From a virus: a stretch of 64,000 bases of DNA. Each line of letters opens with the position of its first letter. Within the stretch, counting starts at the first letter, position 1. The notes below the pieces were generated by a model. The model made no database searches. It saw nothing but the letters and a program-made list of their open reading frames with translations, and was not told the DNA's origin. The position numbers were made by a program, and so were the translations under genes. Shown in pieces: positions 1-64,000 of this stretch. The DNA lies in IMG/VR virus record IMGVR_UViG_3300018424_007835, positions 1-64,000 of that record. One strand, 5' to 3'.

Positions 1-581
1 AGGCCGGTGAATCCGTATGCGTATTTTGATGATAGTTTGTTGATGGTGTAGCCTTTTGTGCGGATGTGGTCGATCATCCACGTGTCGGCGGTGGTTAGTT
101 GTACGCTGTGGTGTGCTAGTGTGCCGTCTCCGAGGAGGCATCCGAGTAGGTAGGGGTCGATTGGTGTTGGCTGTGATTCCATTTGTACTGGTTGTACGAT
201 TGGGATGTACCATCGGCAGTCTCCGTTTGGTTTTTGGTAGTAGGTTTCGTACGTGTAACCTCTGGTGGTCTGGGTGAGATGGCTGAACCCCTCGTTTTTT
301 TGTTGGCCACCTTCGTACATTTGTTGTGTGGTTAGTGTTTTCCAGGGTCCGTTACATTTGCGGGCGTTTACGTCTTGTACGTTCCAGAGGTGTTCAGGGT
401 TTACGTCTACGTGGGTGCCGTCTGTGAATTCGACTCGTAGTACTCGTGTAGTGCCTTGTGGGTGTACGGCTACTACTTTGGTGGGTTTACCGTCCGATCC
501 GATTACTAGGTCGTTTACTTTGACTTCGCCGTGAGTGGTCCACCCGGTTGGTGTAAGTATCATAGTACTTAGTATACACGC
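1..581 (-). mobile_element. Intein (Ala1, LAGLIDADG endonuclease) in the SNF2 Walker A motif, partial
   Basis: GLGK|ACILSTMILTPTGW...FTDGTHVDVNPEHLW (block B His/Trp)...IDPYLLGCLLGDG; C-terminus is outside the window. Confidence 0.85.
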
Positions 582-1190
582 CTTGCCTAGTCCCATCTGG
601 TCGGCTATGAAAGTTTTGCGTTTTTCGGCGGCGTATGCTACGCCTGCTTTTTGGTAGGGGTAGAGTTCTATTTGTAGGGTGGGGATGTGGATGTCGGCGT
701 CGGTGGCTTGGTTGAGGTTTTGTGCGTGTTGTGCTTGTTGGGTTTCGTTTTGGGCTTGTGTGCGTAGGGTTTGGGGGAAGGGGAGGTTGTGTTGGTCTGC
801 CCATTTGATGATGTCGTGGATGGTGGTGTAGGGGGTTTCCCAGGTGTTTGTGGTTGGGTTCCATTGTACGCCGGGGATGGATTTGAGGTGGGCGATTTGG
901 AGTTGGTTGTAGGGGGTGTTGATTTTGAGTTTGTTTTTTTCAAGTGTTATGGTGGTGGTGGCGTGTGGGTGTTGTGGGAGTTGGAGTTGTTGTAGTTGTT
1001 CGTCCACGTTTATGTTCCAGGTGTGGGCGAATTGGATGGCTTGTTGGTGTTGGCGTAGTGGTATGGTCCAGTGTTTGTTGAGTTTGTCCCATTTGGCTGT
1101 GGGGATGGTTGCTTTGAGGGCGTTGACTTCTTCTTGGTTGTAGGGGGTGTGGAGGGTTATTTGGTTTCCGGTTAGTTTTAGTTCTTTCAT
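1..1190 (-). CDS. SNF2-family (SMARCAL1/HARP-like) helicase, intein-interrupted, runs off the left edge
   Basis: Not in the ORF track because there is no stop in the window. My translation from ATG 1190 (ATGA overlap with the upstream gene) is open to base 1: two HARP-like repeats (TPYNQEEVNALK..AKWD..KHW; TPYNQLQIAHLKSIPGVQWN..TW), Q-motif ELYPYQKAGV, Walker A IADQMGLGK. Confidence 0.88.
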   Translation of the reverse strand, partial: MKELKLTGNQITLHTPYNQEEVNALKATIPTAKWDKLNKHWTIPLRQHQQAIQFAHTWNINVDEQLQQLQLPQHPHATTTITLEKNKLKINTPYNQLQIAHLKSIPGVQWNPTTNTWETPYTTIHDIIKWADQHNLPFPQTLRTQAQNETQQAQHAQNLNQATDADIHIPTLQIELYPYQKAGVAYAAEKRKTFIADQMGLGKACILSTMILTPTGWTTHGEVKVNDLVIGSDGKPTKVVAVHPQGTTRVLRVEFTDGTHVDVNPEHLWNVQDVNARKCNGPWKTLTTQQMYEGGQQKNEGFSHLTQTTRGYTYETYYQKPNGDCRWYIPIVQPVQMESQPTPIDPYLLGCLLGDGTLAHHSVQLTTADTWMIDHIRTKGYTINKLSSKYAYGFTG

Positions 1191-1480
1191 TGGTAGTTGG
1201 GTAGGTCGTTGATGATGATGGGGGTGTTTGGGCCCATGTATGACCCGTGGATGTTGTAGTAGAAGTGGTCGATGGCGTCTTCATATGATATGTCGTCTTC
1301 CATGATGATGTCAAGGATTTTTTGGGTTGAGTAGACGAGTAGGGTTGGGCGGGTGCCGTTGGGGTGCCATACGTCGGCGGTGGCGATGATGGCGTTGTCG
1401 AAGCCGTCGAGTTTGAGGGCGTTGTTGTTTTCTTGTGCGGCGTGTTGTATGGCTAGTGCGGCTTTTGGGTTTGTGATCAT
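1187..1480 (-). CDS. Conserved phage hypothetical protein
   Basis: Motif DGFDNAII...VYS..KI...EDA..HFYYNI.GSYMG..TP resembles a common environmental-phage family; ATGA-coupled to neighbours. Confidence 0.75.
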   Translation of the reverse strand: MITNPKAALAIQHAAQENNNALKLDGFDNAIIATADVWHPNGTRPTLLVYSTQKILDIIMEDDISYEDAIDHFYYNIHGSYMGPNTPIIINDLPNYQ

Positions 1481-2370
1481 GATACTGGTGTGGGGATGTA
1501 GTGTCGGGTCATGGTGTGTGCGTGTTCTGCTGCTTCGATGGTGCTGATGTGGGTTTGTACTAGGTTGGCCATTGTTTGTTCCCAGGTGTAGCCTCCTGCT
1601 AGGACGTAGGCGATTGGGGTGTTTGTGGCTTTGGCGTGCATGAATACCATGCTGTCTCGTTGTTGCATTGTTGCGTATGAGATGATGGGGTAGGGGTCTG
1701 TGCCTGCGTTGTACAGGATTAGGTCGGTGTTTGGGTTTATGTTTTCTAGGGTTTGGTCTACGTGCCGTAGGTATTGGTTGTCGTTTGTTACGATGTTGAT
1801 GGTGTGGGTTTCGTCTTCCCGGTAGCTGTCGTATTTGTTGGTGGAGATGTCGTATTGTTCTACTCTGTGGTCGATGCCGTAGTGTCGTAGTGAGCGGACG
1901 GTGCCGCCTCCGCAGTGGGCGTCGAAGTCTAGGATGGTGATGTGCGTGTCGTTGTACCAGTTTGCTGTGATGGCTAGACCGTTGACGGTGCAGTATCCTG
2001 CGCCTGTGTTTGGGTCGGCGTGGTGTAGTCCTGATGATAGGCTTCCTGCTATTCCTTGGTTTAGTGCGGTTTGGGTGGCGGCGATTACTCCTGCTGTGGA
2101 GTTGCGTGCCATTTCCCAGATGCCTGGCTCCCAGTTGAAGCCGTTGCTGTTTGCTAGTTGGCTTGGGATGCCGGTTTTGAGGGCACCGTAGTAGTCTATG
2201 TCCAGCCCGTGCCTGATGGCTTTGTCTGCGACGTGGATCATGTGGTGGGGGTCGGTGATGTTGTTTGCACCGATGGTGTTTACAATGTTCTCACTTTTGC
2301 GGGTGGTGTCGAATGCGTCTTCTGCTCCGACGTAGTGGTGGTTCCAGTAGATTTTGTGACTGTAGGCCAT
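1477..2370 (-). CDS. Histone deacetylase/AcuC/AphA-family Zn-dependent deacylase
   Basis: SGLHHA, GYCTVN, LDFDAHCGGGT, YNAGTDP and LAGGY motifs; start at ATG 2370 with AAGGAG RBS. Confidence 0.9.
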   Translation of the reverse strand: MAYSHKIYWNHHYVGAEDAFDTTRKSENIVNTIGANNITDPHHMIHVADKAIRHGLDIDYYGALKTGIPSQLANSNGFNWEPGIWEMARNSTAGVIAATQTALNQGIAGSLSSGLHHADPNTGAGYCTVNGLAITANWYNDTHITILDFDAHCGGGTVRSLRHYGIDHRVEQYDISTNKYDSYREDETHTINIVTNDNQYLRHVDQTLENINPNTDLILYNAGTDPYPIISYATMQQRDSMVFMHAKATNTPIAYVLAGGYTWEQTMANLVQTHISTIEAAEHAHTMTRHYIPTPVS

Positions 2371-2384
2371 TACGCTCCTTTTTG

Positions 2385-3125
2385 TCAGGGGGCGACCCTG
2401 TTGTTGGTTTCGTATGCTTCCCAGGTGATGGGCATGTGTTGTTGTAGGTGGGATGCTAGTGCTTGTGCGTATTGTTGGATTTCCCATTGGGCGTGTTCGT
2501 CTGCTCGTAGGGAGATGAAGTTGAGTAGGGCTCTGGCGTTGGTGGTGGCGTAGAATTCTGTGTAGGTTCCTACTGGCAGCACCATGCGTGCTACTTCTTT
2601 TGCTACTCCTTGTTTGATTAGGGTTTTGTATGCGAAGAAGGAGTGTGCGTATGCTGATTGCATGCCGTCGATTGGGTATTGGGCGGCGGGGAGGGGGTGG
2701 AAGGTGTATGCCCCTGGTTTTCCGACTTGTGTGCGGATTTGGGCGGGGGCAGGGATGTATCCTTCGGTTTCAATTTCGGCGTATCGTCCTGAGTATTCGT
2801 TGTATGACCATCCGATTCGGTGTCTGAACCATTCTCTTACAACAAAGATGGGTGCTTTGACGTGGAAGCGGAAGAAGTTGTGTTCAAATGGGGTGCCGTG
2901 CTTTTCTCGCATGAGAAATTGTATGAGTTTGTCGTCTCCGTCTTCCATTGTTTCGTGTCGTTTTCCGAACGATACTCGGGCGGCGTTTACTACGCTTAGG
3001 TCGTCTGCTGAGACAGCGTCTAGCCGAACGAATCCTTTGTCTAACACGTCTATTGAGTCCCCTACGGGAACGGGAGGTGCTGCCTGGCTTTGGGCTTTTG
3101 GTATGTCTTTCCAGCGCATATTCAT
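2385..3125 (-). CDS. thyX: FAD-dependent thymidylate synthase
   Basis: HGTPFEH, RHRIGWSYNEYSGRY (RHRx7SxR signature), EVARMVLP, HAQWEIQ. Confidence 0.97.
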   Translation of the reverse strand: MNMRWKDIPKAQSQAAPPVPVGDSIDVLDKGFVRLDAVSADDLSVVNAARVSFGKRHETMEDGDDKLIQFLMREKHGTPFEHNFFRFHVKAPIFVVREWFRHRIGWSYNEYSGRYAEIETEGYIPAPAQIRTQVGKPGAYTFHPLPAAQYPIDGMQSAYAHSFFAYKTLIKQGVAKEVARMVLPVGTYTEFYATTNARALLNFISLRADEHAQWEIQQYAQALASHLQQHMPITWEAYETNNRVAP

Positions 3126-10367: not shown

Positions 10368-10564
10368 AACTTTTAAAGCATATTAAGGGCATTGCTAAGT
10401 CAATGTTTAAGGAAATATTTTATTTGGGGTGGACGCTGGCAGGCACTGGACTTGTCTTAATTACGCTGTCGTCTTCAACCTTGACCTACGGTATTTGGAT
10501 TTCGGCCGCAGGGCTAGCGTTGCATTTAGTTAGCATTATGTTTGATTATTTCGATGGAGAATAA
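10364..10564 (+). CDS. Small two-TM membrane protein
   Basis: Two hydrophobic segments; ATGA-coupled to the previous gene. Confidence 0.7.
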   Translation: MKLLKHIKGIAKSMFKEIFYLGWTLAGTGLVLITLSSSTLTYGIWISAAGLALHLVSIMFDYFDGE

Positions 10565-10565
10565 A

Positions 10566-10820
10566 ATGGATGAGATTAACAAACTTATACTTAATACTGT
10601 AGGTAGAATTTTTGCTGTTTTTGTGATGAACGCTATGGCAATTATTGGAGGCTCCAGCCTTATTGGGGGAATTGATCCGTGGAAAGCGGCGTTCTTGGCA
10701 GGAGTAACAAGTTGCACAACTGTGCTGCAAAAGCTAGCCGCTGCTTACGCTGATGATGGTAAAATCACTGCGGACGAAATTGATTCTGCTTTTGCTTTAG
10801 GTCAGCATAAAAAGTCCTAG
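10566..10820 (+). CDS. Holin-like membrane protein
   Basis: Two TM segments and a DDGKITADEID tail; GGAG RBS before ATG 10566. Confidence 0.6.
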   Translation: MDEINKLILNTVGRIFAVFVMNAMAIIGGSSLIGGIDPWKAAFLAGVTSCTTVLQKLAAAYADDGKITADEIDSAFALGQHKKS

Positions 10821-10934
10821 TTGGGTTTACATATTTGTACTGCTGGGCGTGCCGGGCATATGTGGTAGACTAAATATAGGCGACAGGGCAACCTTCCTGT
10901 TGCCTGTATTTATCCCCTAACAAGGAGAAGAAAT

Positions 10935-11132
10935 ATGGATGTTACCATCTATAAGCAGGTAGCTGAGCGGGCGCTCATGACTTTCGCACAGACATTTCTG
11001 GCGATGTTCGTTGTGACTGACCTTACTTCAGCAAAGGGTGCCCTTACGGCGGCGGCCGCTGCAGGACTTTCTGTAGTGAAGTCGTTTGCTGCCACTAAGA
11101 TTGGCGATCCTTCTACCGCATCTGTCGTATAA
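10935..11132 (+). CDS. r1t-like holin
   Basis: ERALMTFAQTFLA...AAAAGLSVVKS...GDP pattern of actinophage r1t holins; AAGGAG RBS. Confidence 0.8.
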   Translation: MDVTIYKQVAERALMTFAQTFLAMFVVTDLTSAKGALTAAAAAGLSVVKSFAATKIGDPSTASVV

Positions 11133-11182
11133 TTTTTTACGCATCCCTTGCATGAGGTAGGGAAGTGTGCTATTATATGACT

Positions 11183-11272
11183 GTTAGGGGGTAAGTCTTT
11201 TCCGCTCCGTTGTGACTTCCCTACTAACGAGGAAGACCCCGGTCACTTAGGTGGCTGGGGTTCTTTCTTTTT
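11183..11272 (+). ncRNA. Candidate ~90-nt sRNA (hairpin with CUCC loop plus intrinsic terminator)
   Basis: TTGCAT (11148), 17 nt, TATTAT (11171); stem GUUAG..AAGUC/GACUU..CUAAC; terminator ACCCCGGUCAC-UUAG-GUGGCUGGGGU plus U tract. Confidence 0.6.
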
Positions 11273-12613: not shown

Positions 12614-12979
12614 ATGGCAAATAAACGTGGTCCCAAGCGGACGGTTAAGGCGTCCATTCGTGTTGGCGAGTGGGGAGGTACGGGCTGGCAGCTGGAGTTA
12701 GAGTGTGGGCATGTTGTGCCGTCAGACCGCCGGGCTGTTGTGGGAGAGACACGGGTATGTTGTAAAATCTGCGCTACGCCAGACACACCGCAGCGATTAG
12801 TGGAGGTTTTGAGCGACTGGGAGAACGGATGGGAACCCTGGGACCCTACTGCTGAGATAAAGATGAAAGCAAAACTAGCGTCACTTGTTGGTGTGCCACT
12901 TGATCAAGTTGAGATCAACAATGGCACTGCCACTATCTTTGTGGATGCACAGCAGCTTAAGCGGATAATGGCCAACTAG
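12614..12979 (+). CDS. Hypothetical protein with putative Zn ligands (CGH...CKIC)
   Basis: TATAAT 6 nt before ATG 12614; divergent from recA. Confidence 0.65.
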   Translation: MANKRGPKRTVKASIRVGEWGGTGWQLELECGHVVPSDRRAVVGETRVCCKICATPDTPQRLVEVLSDWENGWEPWDPTAEIKMKAKLASLVGVPLDQVEINNGTATIFVDAQQLKRIMAN

Positions 12980-13584
12980 CGACAGTTGATAAAGTTTTCT
13001 CTGTGCCGCCGATAAAATAGCAGGCCCTGCCGCACTTGTGTGACCGTGGCACCAAGCGCCAACATTCCATTCCACAGACTCAAGTCTTCGGCCCCGGCGT
13101 TACCCTCAAGGAAATTATGGTGTCGTTTGTAGCCAACTTTTTGGGCTAGGGCCGTTTTGTACATCATTGATCCATGATGACCTTTTCTTTCCCAGTACAA
13201 GTCTCCGTTTGTTGGGGTTGTGGGTACGGGATGATTTTTCTTAAACTCTCCCGTAATAATGATGTCGTATGTGACAATGTCAGTGCTGTGTTGAGTTAAG
13301 GTTTCGACTGTGTCAGATCGTAACCAGTTATCCGCCCCAATAAACATTGTGTATTCAGTGTCTACTTTCATAAGCATGTCTTGGAAGTTGTCAGCGGTCC
13401 CTAGGTTTTCTTCCCTTAGGGTGTACTCAACCTCTGGATAAACTTTTGGTAAGTGGGCGCAGTCGCCGACCCCGTCATCAACAAAAAGAATTTTTTCTGG
13501 TTTAACGGTTTGTGATAACAGGCTTTCAATGCAGTGCGCAGCAAGATGCCCGTAATAATACGAGGCTACTACAACTGTTAGCAT
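12976..13584 (-). CDS. GT2-family glycosyltransferase
   Basis: LTVVVASYYYG, FVDDG, ENLG, GADN (DxD-like), AEDLSLW, FYRRH. Confidence 0.9.
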   Translation of the reverse strand: MLTVVVASYYYGHLAAHCIESLLSQTVKPEKILFVDDGVGDCAHLPKVYPEVEYTLREENLGTADNFQDMLMKVDTEYTMFIGADNWLRSDTVETLTQHSTDIVTYDIIITGEFKKNHPVPTTPTNGDLYWERKGHHGSMMYKTALAQKVGYKRHHNFLEGNAGAEDLSLWNGMLALGATVTQVRQGLLFYRRHRENFINCR

Positions 13585-14312
13585 TATGGAATCCTTTCTG
13601 GGTTTATCTGATGTATAACTTTTCCGTCAACAAGATACTCAGGGTAGTCTAGCACGCTGGCTGACTTGCAAAAGCCATTCATGTAGGTCATTCGTGAGTT
13701 TCCTGAGGTGTTTTCTTCGCTTCCGTGTATAATGTTTACCGACCATAACATCACTGAACCACGGGTTGCTGTGTACTTTGTTCCGTAGAGGTTCTGCCTG
13801 TTGAATTGGCGAAGGTTTTTAGGGACTGGGAAGATTGGCCACATGTGTGAGCCTTCGATAAACTCTACAGCGCCGTTACTTGGGGTGATGTCATCTACCG
13901 CAATAATTGTCTGCAAGTAATCGGAGGATATAGATGCCGTAAAAACACCGCTTTCCCGAAATATAGTGTCTCGGTGCCAGGCGAATGTATCTAAGTCTTC
14001 AGCTTCCCTAAAGTAAACTTGATTATTAATCTGGCGGACATTGTCCCCTAAGAAACTTTGTACAATATCAACCATTCTCTGGTCAATTCTGTACTTGTTT
14101 AAGATTGGGTTTGCTAGCGCCGGGAAAAAGATTAATGACTTTTTGTTGTAAGCTTGCTCGCTAGGAATGTGGGGGTAGCCAGAATTTGCTATTTGTTCGT
14201 CGGTTGTGGCATATGCGGCAGCCTTCATTTCGTCGCACTCATCCGCTGTGAATACGTCAGGTATCGTTGTGACACCTTTTATGTCTAGTTCTTCTTTATG
14301 CGAATGGTACAT
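13584..14312 (-). CDS. PhyH-family 2OG-Fe(II) dioxygenase
   Basis: AWHRD (HxD), NGAVEFIEGSH, IIHGS..N.....R; likely start ATG 14312. Confidence 0.88.
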   Translation of the reverse strand: MYHSHKEELDIKGVTTIPDVFTADECDEMKAAAYATTDEQIANSGYPHIPSEQAYNKKSLIFFPALANPILNKYRIDQRMVDIVQSFLGDNVRQINNQVYFREAEDLDTFAWHRDTIFRESGVFTASISSDYLQTIIAVDDITPSNGAVEFIEGSHMWPIFPVPKNLRQFNRQNLYGTKYTATRGSVMLWSVNIIHGSEENTSGNSRMTYMNGFCKSASVLDYPEYLVDGKVIHQINPERIP

Positions 14313-14817
14313 AGTTGCTATACAGTTTGAAGTTTGCGTCTGGGTGACTTCCTTCTGCCACACCCTGTGTAACAGAATAGGCTTTTTCGTAACCAGCTTT
14401 TTTGACTAGCTCCACAACTCTGTCGTCGTAGTCCCCGTAGGGGTAGCGTAAATACTTTGTTGGGAAGGGGGCAGTGATTTCTTGAATAATTTCACGGTCA
14501 CTCAGAAGGGGTAACGACGTGTGTGACCATGTGTGCCAGCCAATTTCAAAGTCGTACATTGCACACAGGGATTTAACCTCAGTGAGTGTACAGTATCGCT
14601 CTAGCTTGGGTACCATGTGTAGATCAAAGGTGTTATCTTTACCCATGAAGTTTCCCATTACAAACATAATCCCTGATTTGCCCTTTAGTACATCATGGTT
14701 GTCTAGAACGTTTCGGTAGACTCCGTCAAAGCCAATGGGTTCGTCGCACGCCAGGATCTGTGCCCTGGTGTGGTAGTTAGAGTGGTGTGTGTCTCCGATA
14801 TTGTGTGCAAGTCTCAT
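14296..14817 (-). CDS. NodB-type polysaccharide deacetylase
   Basis: GFDG, EIGWHTWSH, RYPYGDY, GYEKAYS; likely start ATG 14817 (ATGA overlap). Confidence 0.85.
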   Translation of the reverse strand: MRLAHNIGDTHHSNYHTRAQILACDEPIGFDGVYRNVLDNHDVLKGKSGIMFVMGNFMGKDNTFDLHMVPKLERYCTLTEVKSLCAMYDFEIGWHTWSHTSLPLLSDREIIQEITAPFPTKYLRYPYGDYDDRVVELVKKAGYEKAYSVTQGVAEGSHPDANFKLYSNYVPFA

Positions 14818-15302
14818 TGGTACTCCCATACGGTTATGTTGTGAACGTACTCTCTGTATAGGATATCGAAGCTCCGTATTGGGTTCCCGAACGTGTATGG
14901 TTGTAGCCACGATGATATGCCTGCAATGAATACGGTTGTTCCAGTTGTGCAGGCATCGTGGATGTTCTGGGCTATTGCCGCATGGTCATACTGTGGGTAA
15001 AGCAGCCCAGTTGCCATGACGAAATCGTAGTGACCTTCGGGGGCCAGTACCCGCCTTACGTTGGGCGGTAGTCTAGAGGAGGCGTTGTCGCTTACTTCAA
15101 GTGCATGGATCTCGGGGGCTGGCAGGTCTTTGGTTATCCACCCTTCGCCTGCACCTATGTCTAAGGCCTTGTTAAAGTTAGGGCCAACGTCCTCCACTAT
15201 AGCTAGGTAGAAGGACTTCCTGTACTGGTCTTCCGGGTCCTTTTGGTAGTTCCAGGGGTCCGCCTGCTCGTACCATTGTTCTAGTTCGTGTAGAGGTTGC
15301 AT
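14814..15302 (-). CDS. NodS-like SAM-dependent methyltransferase
   Basis: YEQADPWNY N-terminal motif, ALDIGAGEG motif I, YDFVMATGLLY. Confidence 0.82.
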   Translation of the reverse strand: MQPLHELEQWYEQADPWNYQKDPEDQYRKSFYLAIVEDVGPNFNKALDIGAGEGWITKDLPAPEIHALEVSDNASSRLPPNVRRVLAPEGHYDFVMATGLLYPQYDHAAIAQNIHDACTTGTTVFIAGISSWLQPYTFGNPIRSFDILYREYVHNITVWEYQ

Positions 15303-15319
15303 CGTTATATGCTACCTGG

Positions 15320-15765
15320 TTCTTGGTGTGTTTGGCAACTAGTCACCCACCCTTTCGTGTGGTAGTAGTTGACGCTACTTACACGAAAGCTCAGGCTGTA
15401 CCCGCTCTAGTATTATTAGATCCCCTGCATCATCGACCCCAAGCATCCCCTATTTTTTCAGGAATGCCCACTCTCCCCAGATATGGCTCTGGATGCCCGT
15501 GTGCCGGAACCGCATGGGCGTTTGCTAGTTCCGAACCTATCTCCTCAAGTCCTAGTGTTCAGCGTGCAGGGACTGGGACCCCGTCAAGGGTGTTGTTCCA
15601 GTGTATCGTGCGATCCATACCGTCACTCTTTGGGTAGGCGTGCCCGTCGTGTCTCTTTCTCACCAGTTGCGTAACGAGTGTGACCCTCCGGTCCATCAGC
15701 AGTTCTTTATGTCATCGGGATTCCCCGGTTGCGTTGCGTTGCGGTGCGCTCCTTTTGTTGGTTTG
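15320..15765 (-). ncRNA. Candidate large structured non-coding RNA (~450 nt)
   Basis: Consensus promoter at 15800-15772, no credible ORF, nested long-range helices and at least five local hairpins (see findings). Confidence 0.55.
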
Positions 15766-15771
15766 CTGGGT

Positions 15772-15800
15772 ATTCTAGTGGGTTTAGGGCGGGGTGTCAA
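15772..15800 (-). promoter_or_regulatory. Consensus sigma70 promoter
   Basis: TTGACA (15800-15795), 17 nt, TAGAAT (15777-15772). Confidence 0.85.
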
Positions 15801-15828
15801 TGCCTGTTTTGGGTTGTTTGCTTGACAA

Positions 15829-15844
15829 ATAGTCTTTAGACTAT
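15829..15844. promoter_or_regulatory. Palindromic operator candidate over the whiB -10 box
   Basis: ATAGTCT-TT-AGACTAT perfect inverted repeat containing TAGACT. Confidence 0.5.
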
Positions 15845-15867
15845 GTGAAGCAACGAAAGGAAGCAAC

Positions 15868-16101
15868 GTGTTTAATGAAATTAAGGCACCTGCATGGTAT
15901 CGTACTGCTCCTTGTCGTGGACAGGATCGTTTGTTTTTCTCGGCTAAGCCGTCAAAGCGTAAGGCGGCTGTCCGCATTTGTGTGTTAGAGTGTGAACATA
16001 CTGAGGAGTGTTTGGGTATTGCAGTATCCGCTAAGCTTATTGACGGGGTTTGGGGCGGAAAGACGGGGCCAGAAATTGAACGAATAGTTGAGATTACGTG
16101 A
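15868..16101 (+). CDS. whiB: WhiB-family Fe-S transcription factor
   Basis: W...APC...FF...AVRIC..C.....C...GVWGG. Confidence 0.93.
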   Translation: MFNEIKAPAWYRTAPCRGQDRLFFSAKPSKRKAAVRICVLECEHTEECLGIAVSAKLIDGVWGGKTGPEIERIVEIT

Positions 16102-16466
16102 TTGAGTTCGATGATTTGGCAGATGATGTAATTGGTGTACTGCGTCGGGGGTTGATGGAAGTAGTCTTTTTTGTTGTACCTGCTTCCGCAATTGAGGGAA
16201 AAGATTTCGAGCTGCTTGTTTGGACCGACTCCACGGTTAGTATTGGGGTGTCTGCGGATTATTTAGACGGACCACTTAGGGACATGGTTGCTGAAGCCAT
16301 TCTTGAAAGAGACCACGGGTCGTCGGCTTCGTGGGAAGAGCATGCAATGGAGTTGTTCGTTATGCATTTGAGTGACATTTTGAATGAAGTTATGCATAGG
16401 AGTTTTGACAAGTGGTCGTATTTAAACCTTGATTCTGGATTAAAGCGGATTTTAGGGGAGCATTGA
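16098..16466 (+). CDS. Hypothetical protein
   Basis: GTGA-coupled to whiB; acidic ORF. Confidence 0.7.
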   Translation: MIEFDDLADDVIGVLRRGLMEVVFFVVPASAIEGKDFELLVWTDSTVSIGVSADYLDGPLRDMVAEAILERDHGSSASWEEHAMELFVMHLSDILNEVMHRSFDKWSYLNLDSGLKRILGEH

Positions 16467-62164: not shown

Positions 62165-62178
62165 AAAGGTAATTTGTG

Positions 62179-62346
62179 ATGGCACCGCATAAAAAGTTTA
62201 CATTAGAAAGTGGCACTGAAGTTTCTGTTGATCGGCTTATTGCCGACAGCCTTGTGCGCCCTCGGGCTAGTTGGCCCATTCCAGAGGCAATGACGGAGAA
62301 TGCGCAGGTAGAGTTGTGGAAGAGAGCCCGGTATGCCGAAGTATAG
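62179..62346 (+). CDS. Small hypothetical protein (55 aa)
   Basis: Below the ORF-track cutoff; GAAAGG RBS; fills the gap between flanking ORFs. Confidence 0.5.
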   Translation: MAPHKKFTLESGTEVSVDRLIADSLVRPRASWPIPEAMTENAQVELWKRARYAEV

Positions 62347-62554
62347 AAAGATCACAGGTGGTGGTAAAACTTACGTAGAAGCGATTCCTGCATGGCAGCA
62401 AGATTGGGAAAATCACGAGCTAGATCAGTGGGATGATGTTTATCGTGGGTTTGAACAGTGGGAAATTCTAGACCTAGTAGAAGAGTATCCTGACGCTACC
62501 CCCGACGAGTTAAAAGAAATGGCGTTGGCTGCACGAGAAAACGATTCCGACTGA
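62333..62554 (+). CDS. Small acidic hypothetical protein
   Basis: ORF-track 73 aa, co-oriented with neighbours. Confidence 0.55.
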   Translation: MPKYRKITGGGKTYVEAIPAWQQDWENHELDQWDDVYRGFEQWEILDLVEEYPDATPDELKEMALAARENDSD

Positions 62555-62674
62555 TAGTTCCATCCATATTCCGTCGTTGCATGGTAACATAATACTTGAC
62601 AGAGCAGACTTTCGTCTGGCCCTCAGGGCAAGTCAATACGTATTGATATCGACAACGAAAATTGGAGGCTAAAA

Positions 62675-64000
62675 ATGCCGGGAATTAATGTCACCACTGC
62701 AGTACGCACTGGTCCTGTCGGCACTACGGACATCGTATCAGGTCAGGCGTTCATGATTGGTGCAACAGAGCGAGGGCCGGTGGATGAGCCGCTTTTGCTT
62801 AGGTCTTTTCAGGACTACACCACGTATTATGGTAACTATCAGGCTAATTCGCTGTATATGCATGCGAAGACTTTTTTTGATGAGGGTGGTTCTCGTTTGT
62901 ATGTGCGTAGGGCGCATGCGGGTACGGCGGCTTCAGCAACGGTTGGTTCGCTTGCTTTGAATGACAGCGCATCGTCTGCGACTATGATTGTGGAGGCTAA
63001 GACTCCGGGTCCGTGGTCGGCTAATTTGACTGTTCAGGTGCAGAACAATAGTGATGATAGCAATATTGCTGCTGGTTCGTTTAGGATTTTGATTCGTCTT
63101 GATGGTGAGCTTCTTTTGTCGACTCGGGATTTGGTTGATGTGAGTGATGCTATTAATGTGATTAATTCTTCGTCTGTTAATCATTTGATTGAGGCTTCTG
63201 ATGATGTTACTTCTTCTAACAACCCTGATTCGCTGGCGGCGACTGCGCTTTCTACAGGTGTAGCTCCTGCTCCTACTGATACTACGATTGCCGAGGATTT
63301 GGTGGGCACCTCTGCGGGGGCAGTTTCCCGGTATGGGGATGGGGCGTTTAGCCCAAATTTGAAGAGTGGTGCCGTTTTGGCTCCTGAGAATGGTGTGACT
63401 GCTGTTTGGGCTGCTCTGCGTGATCATGCTGTGGCGAATAATCGTATTGCGATTTGTGATTTCAGCTCGGGCGACTCAGCTGCTACTGCTCGTTCGGCTG
63501 CGGCAGCCTATTATAGTGATTCGAGTGCGCACTATATGGCGTTCTACTGGCCTTACGTAAAGGTTCCCGTTCCTAACTCTTCCGAGTTGGCTACTGGCAC
63601 TTCGGCCCTGATCGGTTCCACTTTGACTATCGCCCCGTCTTCATATGCGGCTGCTGCGAGGGCACGGGCGGTTCAGGAAGCCACTGGACCTTGGCGTGCG
63701 GGTGCCGGTCAGATTTCTTCGGCTAAGACGATCACTGCGTTGGCTCAGGATGTGACGGCGGCAACGGGTGATATTATGGACAACGCCAGGGTTAATGCTT
63801 TGCGTAAGGTTGGCACTTCTATTCGGGTGTATGGTGCCCGCTCTGTGTCAAATGATGAAACGAACTGGCGGTACATCACTCAGCGAGACACCCTTAACTA
63901 CATTACGGTTGGGGTTGCGGACCGAATGGAACAGTACCTGTTTGAAACGGTTGACGCACGAGGAAATCTTTTCGGACGAATTCGTGGTGCGATTAAGGCG
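62675..64000 (+). CDS. Contractile tail sheath protein, runs off the right edge
   Basis: Not in the ORF track. ATG 62675 with GGAGG: MPGINVTT...FMIGATERGP...FFDEGGSRLYV...PGPW...FYWPYV...GPWRAGAG...VNALR...VYGARS...WRYI. Confidence 0.92.
   Translation, partial: MPGINVTTAVRTGPVGTTDIVSGQAFMIGATERGPVDEPLLLRSFQDYTTYYGNYQANSLYMHAKTFFDEGGSRLYVRRAHAGTAASATVGSLALNDSASSATMIVEAKTPGPWSANLTVQVQNNSDDSNIAAGSFRILIRLDGELLLSTRDLVDVSDAINVINSSSVNHLIEASDDVTSSNNPDSLAATALSTGVAPAPTDTTIAEDLVGTSAGAVSRYGDGAFSPNLKSGAVLAPENGVTAVWAALRDHAVANNRIAICDFSSGDSAATARSAAAAYYSDSSAHYMAFYWPYVKVPVPNSSELATGTSALIGSTLTIAPSSYAAAARARAVQEATGPWRAGAGQISSAKTITALAQDVTAATGDIMDNARVNALRKVGTSIRVYGARSVSNDETNWRYITQRDTLNYITVGVADRMEQYLFETVDARGNLFGRIRGAIKA

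What the first reader, a model, noticed from the sequence alone, without database searches (positions are those of the whole stretch)
15320..15800. Candidate novel ~450-nt structured ncRNA divergent from whiB
Seen: the largest non-coding gap in the window, headed by TTGACA-17-TAGAAT on the minus strand, while the downstream methyltransferase has its own leaderless -10. On the minus strand two nested 9-bp long-range helices close the domain with G-U pairs: GCAACUGGU (15670-15662) with ACUAGUUGC (15343-15335), and CGCCUACCC (15640-15632) with GGGUGGGUG (15352-15344). Inside are CCCUGCA/UGCAGGG (15571-15565 / 15429-15423) and hairpins at 15352-15389, 15443-15467, 15477-15492, 15493-15521 and 15572-15602. 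Caveat: three local hairpins pair better on the plus strand, so a structured ssDNA origin is an alternative. I do not recognise it as tRNA, tmRNA, RNase P, 6S or a group I/II intron.
Basis: partly seen in the sequence, partly recalled or inferred. Interest (0 to 1): 0.75.

Follow-up and report, generated by a model that had tools for sequence, protein, structure and literature searches.

The report
New large folded RNA in marine actinophages
The gene-free stretch next to whiB is a real, separately promoted gene for a folded RNA of about 420 bases. It matches no known RNA family, is kept almost unchanged in about 90 uncultured marine phage contigs, and its function is unknown.

Summary
The main claim holds. 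Window 15344-15766 (minus strand) encodes a structured non-coding RNA of about 420 nt with its own conserved TTGACA-17-TAGAAT promoter.

- **Conservation:** the stretch is 74-81% identical in DNA across 42 IMG/VR and 46 metagenome contigs (marine and brackish). The flanking proteins are only 21-65% identical.
- **Structure:** on 53 distinct copies, a consensus fold of 96 pairs in 16 helices is 94.4% paired. 39 pairs show compensatory double changes (0/500 shuffles reach this; slid controls give 34-42% paired). One pseudoknot has covariation.
- **Strand:** G-U outnumbers A-C by 492 to 111 cells, which sets the minus strand.
- **Not coding:** there is no codon periodicity, and the 45-aa ORF is intact in 3 of 53 copies.
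- **Not a leader:** in at least 14 phages a convergent gene abuts the RNA's 3' end. Where checked, same-strand neighbours have their own leaderless promoter.
- **No known relative:** Rfam 15 gives no match in the RNA for the window or for 14 homologues. ARAGORN finds nothing. Two motif scans of 185,579 species genomes found no copy.

Four of its five hairpins are. Function is unknown; the best guess is a stable, early, trans-acting RNA. This scan also flagged what looks like a relative on other DNA (e1-5922828), which was not followed up.

The parts
15772..15800 (-). Promoter of the RNA gene: -35 TTGACA (15800-15795), 17-nt spacer, -10 TAGAAT (15777-15772)
   Evidence: The consensus scan scores it 11/12. 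TTGAC and TAnnnT are invariant in 35 homologues. The promoter stays with the RNA where 1.2-1.9 kb separates the RNA from whiB.
15344..15766 (-). Predicted RNA of about 423 nt. The 5' end is inferred 6-7 nt after the -10 hexamer. The 3' end is inferred just after the tail of the terminal hairpin.
   Evidence: Homology and covariation span this stretch. Homology to the 99%-identical relative L015 breaks at about 15349. Assembly-graph loose ends lie at 15350 and 15782. Neither end has been mapped experimentally.
15749..15754 (-). Conserved single-stranded Shine-Dalgarno-like AAGGAG, about 13 nt from the predicted 5' end. No start codon follows it.
   Evidence: RGGAG is conserved in 52 of 53 copies within an otherwise variable A/C-rich leader. 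Its role as a 5' stabiliser is an inference.
15716..15727 (-). P1 hairpin (CGGG/CCCG), followed by the invariant GAUGACAUAAA
   Evidence: 100% of cells paired; 3 of 4 pairs have double changes.
15423..15704 (-). Long-range helices P2 (15704-15698 with 15429-15423), P3 (15694-15690 with 15438-15434) and P4 (15680-15676 with 15473-15469), which enclose the core. P5 (15670-15662 with 15502-15495) is putative because its sequence never varies.
   Evidence: P2 is 95.7% paired with 4 covarying pairs. P3 is 88.7% paired with 5. P4 is 100% paired with 2. P5 is 97.8% paired with no covariation.
15535..15639 (-). Central domain P6-P10: P6 15639-15632/15544-15535, P7 15628-15625/15550-15547, P8 15621-15607/15564-15554, P9 15602-15598/15576-15572, P10 15592-15587/15582-15577
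   Evidence: 15 pairs have double changes. On a maximum-likelihood tree P10 and P7 each show 7 independent switches at one pair.
15504..15534 (-). P11/P12 hairpin. Its loop GCCC (15519-15516) forms a pseudoknot with GGGC (15645-15642).
   Evidence: At the pseudoknot, G-C changes to A-U in 11 sequences, in two independent events. P11 is 94% paired.
15442..15492 (-). P13 hairpin (15492-15477, invariant GCCAUA loop) and P14 hairpin (15468-15442, invariant A-rich loop UGAAAAAAUA)
   Evidence: P13 is 100% paired, with U-A changing to C-G in 24 of 53 copies (3 events). P14 is 97% paired with 3 covarying pairs.
15346..15395 (-). Terminal long hairpin P15/P16 with a G-rich tail and no U tract. Presumed 3' end and protective structure, or a terminator without a U tract.
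   Evidence: 84-85% of cells are paired even though this part is imperfectly aligned; 5 pairs covary. The tail variants GGGAC, UAGGU and AAGG match GUCCC, ACCUA and CCUU when read on the alignment. No terminator-like site was found on the minus strand.
15309..15338 (-). Separate promoter TTGCCA-18-TAGCAT for the downstream four-gene cassette, with a leaderless start at the ATG at 15302. Not part of the RNA.
   Evidence: Equivalent -10 hexamers lie 6 nt before the ATG in several homologues, read by eye from the alignment.
15868..16101 (+). whiB, the divergently transcribed neighbour. It lies directly across the promoter region in most loci; in a few, 1.2-1.9 kb is inserted between them.
   Evidence: Pfam Whib, E 9.4e-11. 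Synteny.

Best explanation
This is a stand-alone gene for a large structured non-coding RNA of about 420 nt. It belongs to a previously uncatalogued family confined to one lineage of uncultured marine and brackish whiB-encoding phages that look like actinophages.

**Shown**
- It has its own near-consensus sigma-70-type promoter, back to back with the whiB promoter region.
- The fold is conserved: about 16 helices in nested long-range closures, plus a pseudoknot.
- The RNA sense is the window's minus strand.
- It does not code for protein.
- In at least a quarter of the distinct copies it cannot be the leader of the next gene.

**Inferred**
- Host RNA polymerase transcribes it early.
- A 5' Shine-Dalgarno-like AAGGAG and a long 3' hairpin keep it stable.
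- It acts in trans as a compact folded RNA: a scaffold or decoy for a conserved host or phage factor, or a ribozyme. This would happen during early infection, within the replication and recombination module (RecA/UvsX-like, Rad52-like, Cas4-like nuclease, WhiB).

Its target is unknown.
For: **Conservation**
- The intergenic DNA is 74-81% identical over 400-520 nt in relatives whose WhiB is 52-65% identical, whose methyltransferase is 59-64% identical (in the loci that keep the methyltransferase-whiB pair), and whose gpY is 21-34% identical at the protein level.

**Structure**
- 96 pairs are 94.4% canonical over 5,060 cells. 39 pairs and 409 cells show double changes, and 0 of 500 shuffles reach this. 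Slid controls give 34-42% paired and 6-12 such pairs.
- Compensatory switches are independent on a tree, up to 7 at one pair.
- One pseudoknot has G-C changing to A-U.

**Strand**
- G-U cells number 492 against 111 A-C cells. Several G-U pairs are invariant or nearly so, for example 171-255 in all 53 copies and 345-357 in 52.

**Promoter**
- It scores 11/12 in the window, and TTGAC and TAnnnT are invariant in 35 homologues.

**Not coding**
- Gap runs by length modulo 3 (remainder 1: 2: 0) number 623: 168: 73. Column entropy by codon phase is 0.59/0.56/0.63. The 45-aa ORF is intact in 3 of 53 copies.
- A neighbouring conserved coding stretch gives 0.11/0.94/0.30 under the same test.

**Stand-alone gene**
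- In at least 14 loci a conserved convergent 117-aa gene ends 10-20 nt from the RNA's 3' end.
- The window's copy of that gene lies at 12614-12970, with a four-gene cassette inserted in between.
- The downstream cassette has its own promoter.
- Module boundaries at about 15350 and 15782 are seen independently.

**No known family**
-.
Against: - No direct evidence of transcription. Only one 151-nt contig at depth 2.4 was found in a salt-marsh metatranscriptome, and this could be contaminating DNA.
- Neither the 5' nor the 3' end has been mapped.
- No canonical terminator follows the RNA, so read-through into downstream genes cannot be excluded.
- The single-sequence folding energy is not better than shuffles.
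- P5 and parts of P8 and P11 never vary, so they are unproven.
- The trans-acting role, the stabiliser role of AAGGAG and any partner are inferences. Folds of the two neighbouring small proteins gave no lead.
Confidence: 0.72

Rival explanations
1. Replication-origin RNA. The promoter-driven transcript folds, as ColE1 RNA II does, then forms a persistent RNA-DNA hybrid through its G-rich 3' part and primes or opens the phage origin.
For: - It sits at the point where leftward and rightward transcription diverge, inside the replication and recombination module: UvsX/RecA-like, Rad52-like, PD-(D/E)XK nuclease and primase-helicase genes.
- The RNA is purine-rich, with G runs near the 3' end.
- No terminator follows it.
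Against: - There is no turn in cumulative GC skew at 15 kb.
- I did not notice iterons or an AT-rich unwinding element in the alignments. No repeat search was run.
- The extent of conserved tertiary-type structure (pseudoknot, invariant joining strands) goes beyond what a primer is known to need.
- The DNA just 3' of the RNA is a variable cargo slot.
Confidence: 0.1
2. Cis-acting 5' leader of the leftward genes: a riboswitch, an attenuator, or a processive antiterminator in the manner of HK022 put or EAR.
For: - In many loci a same-strand gene starts 30-60 nt after the RNA.
- No U-tract terminator is present.
Against: - The downstream gene differs between phages: a methyltransferase, a 177-aa gene, a RecA-like gene and 65-aa genes.
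- In at least 14 loci the next gene is convergent.
- The window's same-strand neighbour carries its own -35/-10 and a leaderless ATG. Several homologues show the same by eye.
- The element and its promoter keep fixed boundaries while the flanks are swapped.
Confidence: 0.07
3. A highly diverged or permuted member of a known RNA class (RNase P RNA, tmRNA, group I or II intron, GOLLD, ROOL, 6S or Ms1) that covariance models miss.
For: - The size and complexity are in the range of these classes.
- The plus strand has short resemblances to the group I R and S elements. This is my own recollection and was not tested.
Against: - No Rfam match up to E = 10 falls inside the RNA, for the window or for 14 homologues.
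- ARAGORN finds no tmRNA.
- The strand test excludes the plus strand.
- The helix order is nested with one pseudoknot. By my reading this is unlike the group I P3-P7 arrangement or the RNase P P4 topology.
Confidence: 0.04
4. A DNA-level element: folded single-stranded DNA, such as an origin or packaging signal, or a dense array of protein-binding sites, rather than an RNA.
For: - Most compensatory changes (G-C to A-U) are symmetric between the strands.
Against: - There is strong strand asymmetry: 492 G-U against 111 A-C cells, and G-U pairs that are invariant or nearly so would be A-C mismatches on the other strand.
- A conserved promoter is aimed into the element.
- Long-range nested helices and a pseudoknot are not expected of duplex binding sites.
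Confidence: 0.03
5. A protein-coding region: the 45-aa ORF, or plus-strand ORFs of 63-111 aa.
For: ORFs of 33-111 aa can be drawn in every copy.
Against: - The 45-aa ORF is intact in 3 of 53 copies.
- Most indels are not multiples of three.
- There is no codon periodicity, whereas a neighbouring coding control shows it strongly.
Confidence: 0.01

Closest known systems
GOLLD (Rfam RF02032) and ROOL RNAs: large ornate RNAs carried by phages and prophages. Kretsch et al. (bioRxiv 10.1101/2024.12.08.627333 / PMC12286853, found) report cryo-EM structures of them as RNA-only complexes.
   Same: - Phage-borne and several hundred nucleotides long.
- Many covarying helices, with highly conserved joining regions.
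- No coding potential and no known function.
   Different: - No covariance-model similarity.
- About 420 nt, against roughly 580-800 nt (from my own knowledge).
- It sits beside whiB and recombination genes, and the window has no tRNA genes. GOLLD is often found next to tRNA genes (from my own knowledge).
- It is restricted to one marine actinophage-like lineage.
- Oligomerisation was not tested.
OLE and raiA motif RNAs: large structured ncRNAs of Gram-positive bacteria (PMC12054373, PMC10861870; titles and abstracts seen)
   Same: Large, highly conserved, pseudoknotted ncRNAs with their own transcription units and unresolved biochemical function. The raiA motif occurs in Actinobacteria.
   Different: - Those RNAs are cellular, not viral.
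- No Rfam match here.
- Two motif scans of 185,579 species genomes found no copy of this RNA.
ColE1 RNA II replication primer (from my own knowledge)
   Same: A promoter-driven, folded RNA of about 500 nt in a replication region, with G-rich segments that could hybridise to DNA.
   Different: No origin features were shown here. The 3' flank is variable cargo. There is far more conserved tertiary-type structure. No antisense RNA I equivalent was noticed.
Candidate structured RNAs of viruses catalogued from IMG/VR (Fremin and colleagues 2023, PMC10690425)
   Same: They come from the same data source and the same kind of evidence: intergenic conservation plus covariation. Pieces of this RNA may be among their 8,495 'DNAVirus_X' models.
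   Different: Their models are 29-151 nt long, so none can be the whole 420-nt RNA. I could not check their alignments because the supplements are not held.
STAB-SD 5' stabilisers (for example the cryIIIA leader of Bacillus thuringiensis; from my own knowledge)
   Same: A Shine-Dalgarno-like sequence close to the 5' end with no start codon after it.
   Different: This is only an analogy for the AAGGAG motif. It was not tested, and the host RNases are unknown.

Membership tests
Any Rfam 15 family (including GOLLD, ROOL, OLE, raiA, HEARO, IMES-1 to -4, RNase P, tmRNA, 6S, group I and II introns) | Covariance-model score at or above the family's gathering threshold | tested here: not met
   The whole window gives 0 matches at gathering thresholds. 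The region 15100-16000 gives 0 matches up to E = 10. Fourteen homologous loci give only 4 chance matches, all outside the RNA.
tmRNA / tRNA-like RNAs | tRNA-like domain and tag reading frame detectable by ARAGORN | tested here: not met
   0 tRNA or tmRNA genes in the window.
Cis-regulatory leader (riboswitch, attenuator or antiterminator) | The same downstream gene or gene class, on the same strand, with no promoter in between | tested here: not met
   Downstream genes differ between phages, and in at least 14 loci the next gene is convergent. In the window the next gene has its own promoter at 15338-15309.
Classical sRNA unit (promoter, short RNA, intrinsic terminator) | G+C-rich hairpin followed by a U tract at the 3' end | tested here: not met
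   No minus-strand terminator-like site was found. The terminal hairpin is followed by GGGUGGGUGAC.
Large, complex-folded bacterial or phage ncRNA (informal class: over 200 nt, multi-domain) | Many helices supported by covariation, long-range closures and a pseudoknot, with no coding signal | tested here: met
   16 helices, 39 covarying pairs and one pseudoknot. No periodicity and no conserved ORF.
Large, complex-folded bacterial or phage ncRNA (informal class) | A discrete, stable transcript in vivo | tested here: inconclusive
   Only a 151-nt contig at depth 2.4 from one metatranscriptome. Logan contigs cannot show strand or transcript ends.
RNA-only multimeric assemblies (GOLLD and ROOL type) | Homo-oligomerisation through conserved intermolecular contacts | not testable with these tools
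   By eye I saw no conserved self-complementary loop in the alignments. This needs native gels or cryo-EM.
RNA II-like replication primer | Persistent hybrid at an origin and processing by RNase H | not testable with these tools
   The only indirect datum is the lack of a GC-skew turn at this site.

The most novel reading that the evidence does not exclude
The RNA founds a new class of large functional RNA. It could be a ribozyme, or a self-assembling or protein-scaffolding RNA comparable in rank to GOLLD, ROOL or OLE. Marine actinophages would make it at the start of infection to take over or protect a core host process such as transcription, translation, or replication and recombination.
Probability: 0.25. 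Interest if true: 0.9.

Novelty: categorically new. Interest (0 to 1): 0.72.

Why it matters
To my knowledge few classes of large (over 400 nt), intricately folded bacterial or phage RNAs are known, and those that have been understood proved to be ribozymes, ribonucleoprotein cores or, recently, RNA-only cages.

This RNA is kept at 74-81% nucleotide identity while the proteins beside it have drifted to 21-65% identity. Its joining strands are nearly invariant and it has a covarying pseudoknot. That points to strong selection on a three-dimensional RNA.

It also gives a concrete, compact target of about 420 nt, with 53 natural variants already aligned, for chemical probing, cryo-EM and ribozyme assays. 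Finally, it marks a conserved early module (RNA, WhiB, gpY) in a phage lineage that has no cultured representative.

Tried and rejected
- **Cultured phages.** Nucleotide searches of INPHARED with the gap and with a 6-kb stretch found no match. Protein searches with gpX and gpY also found nothing. No cultured relative is at hand.
- **Cellular genomes.** Two motif scans of 185,579 species genomes gave 0 and 1 hit. The single hit (L085, in a MAG) matches only the pattern itself and is chance.
- **Expression.** One 151-nt piece at depth 2.4 in a salt-marsh metatranscriptome lies inside the RNA, and two pieces lie in the whiB-gpY region in another run. No strand, ends or level can be read from these, and DNA carry-over is possible.
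- **Single-sequence thermodynamics.** Not significant on either strand.
Rejected on family data.
- **Other candidate pairings.** AAGGAG with the 3' strand of P11, and GAUG with CAUC (columns 60-63 with 245-248), each have some support. They compete with better supported helices, so I did not adopt them.
- **Partner proteins.** gpX (117 aa, basic N-terminus, a C-x-H ... C-x2-C motif that looks like a zinc ribbon) and gpY (122-140 aa) have no Pfam or PHROG family. AlphaFold models had pLDDT 74.9 and 81.4. Neither gave a PDB match: Foldseek E was at least 0.2, and the best VIA-align Z for gpY was 4.5.
- **Conserved stretch 10368-11242.** I suspected a second large RNA, but it shows strong codon periodicity and is coding.
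- **Literature.** Four searches found no description of this RNA. The supplements of PMC10690425 are not held, so overlap with its short models could not be checked.
- **Full-length covariance model.** Not built, because the RNA exceeds the 400-column limit and the calibration time limit.

Full report
**The locus.** The window is part of a 109.7-kb IMG/VR virus record. Between a methyltransferase-like ORF (14814-15302, minus strand; Pfam Methyltransf_23) and whiB (15868-16101, plus strand; Pfam Whib) lie 565 bp without a credible gene. A consensus scan finds two minus-strand promoters there. TTGACA-17-TAGAAT at 15800-15772 matches 11 of 12 consensus positions. TTGCCA-18-TAGCAT at 15338-15309 ends six bases before the methyltransferase ATG, which fits a leaderless start. 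Taken alone, the sequence does not fold better than shuffled versions (z -0.97 on the minus strand, -0.72 on the plus strand). Nothing in the single sequence proves structure.

**Relatives.** Searching viral contigs with the two flanking proteins returned some 25 distinct contigs. In these the non-coding stretch is 74-81% identical in DNA over 400-520 nt. By comparison, WhiB is 52-65% identical in protein and the methyltransferase is 59-64% identical in the loci that keep the methyltransferase-whiB pair. The small protein after whiB (gpY) is only 21-34% identical. One metagenome scan adds 46 records, including Tara Oceans records, and the window's DNA is held in salt-marsh runs. Two motif scans of 185,579 prokaryote species genomes give no true copy; the single hit is a chance match to the pattern only. 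Cultured phages have no match at all. The portal protein is closest to those of Brevibacterium, Gordonia and Streptomyces phages (38-44% identity). With whiB, this points to an actinobacterial host.

**Structure and strand.** I aligned 53 distinct copies (alignment A2) and derived a consensus fold with RNAalifold. It has 96 pairs in 16 helices.
- P1 is a 5' hairpin.
- P2-P4, plus the invariant and therefore unproven P5, are nested long-range closures.
- P6-P10 form a central multi-helix domain.
- P11/P12, P13 and P14 are hairpins.
- A variable hairpin and a long terminal hairpin (P15/P16) follow.

On A2, 94.4% of 5,060 cells are standard pairs. 39 pairs and 409 cells have changes on both sides, and none of 500 shuffles reaches these values. 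Sliding the 3' partners by 1-3 columns drops pairing to 34-42% and leaves 6-12 such pairs. On a maximum-likelihood tree the compensatory switches are independent events: seven each at P10 210-221 and P7 174-252, four at P14 343-359, and three each at P13 and P1.

A search for extra stacks found a pseudoknot, GGGC (15645-15642) with the P12 loop GCCC (15519-15516). Its third pair changes from G-C to A-U in 11 sequences, in two independent events.

G-U cells outnumber A-C cells by 492 to 111. Several G-U pairs are invariant or nearly so and would be A-C mismatches on the other strand. The folded molecule therefore has the sense of the window's minus strand, which is the strand the conserved promoter reads.

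The three long-range 'closing' helices are paired in only 57%, 76% and 47% of cells across the family. Only 3 of their 22 pairs show double changes, no more than shuffles give. Their arms belong to P5, P6 and P2. The G-rich 3' tail pairs locally in P15. Four of the five local hairpins are right (P16, P14, P13, P9/P10). The fifth competes with the pseudoknot.

**Not coding.** The 45-aa ORF keeps its start and frame in 3 of 53 copies. Gap runs by length modulo 3 (remainder 1: 2: 0) number 623: 168: 73. Column entropy by codon phase is flat (0.59/0.56/0.63). As a positive control, another conserved stretch of this genome with no long ORF (10368-11242) gives 0.11/0.94/0.30 and is plainly made of small protein genes.

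**Stand-alone gene, not a leader.** The gene after the RNA differs between phages. In at least 14 loci it is a conserved 117-aa gene (gpX) on the opposite strand that ends 10-20 nt from the RNA's 3' end. The window has gpX at 12614-12970. A four-gene cassette (GT2, PhyH, deacetylase, methyltransferase) with its own promoter is inserted between gpX and the RNA. The 99%-identical relative L015 loses homology at about 15349. In a mixed sample the RNA forms a shared assembly node (summed depth 180-250 against 35-42 in the flanks) with loose ends at 15350 and 15782. Where 1.2-1.9 kb separates the RNA from whiB, the promoter stays with the RNA. The unit is thus promoter plus RNA, about 15800 to 15344. 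The predicted transcript runs from about 15766 to about 15344. The ancestral gene order is RecA/UvsX-like, gpX, RNA, whiB, gpY, followed by Rad52-like and Cas4-like nuclease genes.

**Comparison with known families.** Rfam 15 gives nothing at gathering thresholds for the window and nothing up to E = 10 for the region. For 14 homologues there are only 4 chance matches, all outside the RNA. ARAGORN finds no tmRNA or tRNA. Four literature searches found no description. A catalogue of more than 10,000 viral structured-RNA candidates from IMG/VR holds only models of 29-151 nt. It could contain fragments, but I could not check this. Another first-stage note of this scan (e1-5922828) flagged a look-alike promoter-driven RNA of about 420 nt on another genome. 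It shares only 7 of 113 short words and was not followed up.

**Function.** This part is inferred. The features are:
- a near-consensus host-type promoter;
- a conserved single-stranded AAGGAG about 13 nt from the predicted 5' end, with no start codon after it;
- a long 3' hairpin without a U tract;
- a purine-rich, U-poor composition (A 127, G 127, C 107, U 70);
- near-invariant joining strands.

These fit a stable, early, trans-acting folded RNA: a scaffold, a decoy or a ribozyme. I put this at about 0.7. An origin or primer RNA is about 0.1 and a cis-acting leader about 0.07. A diverged member of a known class is about 0.04, a DNA-level element about 0.03 and coding about 0.01. Models of gpX and gpY gave no fold match and no hint of a partner. 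Expression evidence is too thin to count.

**Verdict.** This is a real, new family of large structured RNA in an uncultured marine phage lineage, with strong comparative evidence and an open function.

Noticed in passing
window 12614-12970 (+) and 12976-15302 (-): The slot just 3' of the RNA is a cargo hotspot. In at least 14 relatives a convergent 117-aa gene (gpX: basic N-terminus, a C-x-H ... C-x2-C motif that looks like a zinc ribbon) abuts the RNA. In the window a four-gene cassette (GT2, PhyH dioxygenase, polysaccharide deacetylase, methyltransferase) with its own leaderless promoter is inserted between gpX and the RNA. Other phages carry a 177-aa gene, 65-aa genes or the RecA-like gene there.
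   Followed up: partly
window 16098-16466 (+): gpY, the small protein translationally coupled to whiB, is present in nearly all relatives. It is only 21-34% identical between them, has no Pfam or PHROG family, and has no PDB fold match (model pLDDT 81). The contrast with the RNA's 74-81% DNA identity is striking.
   Followed up: partly
window 10368-11242: An 875-bp stretch with no ORF of 100 aa or more is conserved (67-73% nt) in the same phages. Codon-phase entropy (for example 0.11/0.94/0.30) shows that it holds small protein genes (about 75, 96 and 87 aa), not another large RNA.
   Followed up: yes
window 62165-62932: A 768-bp stretch without an ORF of 100 aa or more. It had no match among the fetched loci, which do not reach that far. 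Not examined further.
   Followed up: no
L019:2424-2888 and L090:479-933: Natural variants of the RNA. L019 has a tandem duplication of about 35 nt covering the 5' strands of P3-P5. L090 has an insert of about 20 nt in the variable A-rich linker between P5 and the pseudoknot. Both could serve as natural mutants for structure-function work.
   Followed up: no
window 15805-15867: The whiB promoter region holds a conserved CTTGACA that lies only 9-14 nt from the conserved TAnnnT. A better spaced -35 (TTGTYT, 17 nt) sits just upstream. The conserved TTGACA may therefore be a second promoter or a regulator site between the two divergent units.
   Followed up: no
window 1-3000: Extreme strand composition: GC skew +0.26 to +0.43 and AT skew -0.41 to -0.49 in 1-kb windows, far above the rest of the window.
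   Followed up: no
window 15350-15782 in run X3: In one mixed sample the RNA is a collapsed assembly node, with summed depth 180-250 against 35-42 in the flanks and unlike sequence at both ends. Several co-occurring phages share the RNA module with different neighbours.
   Followed up: partly
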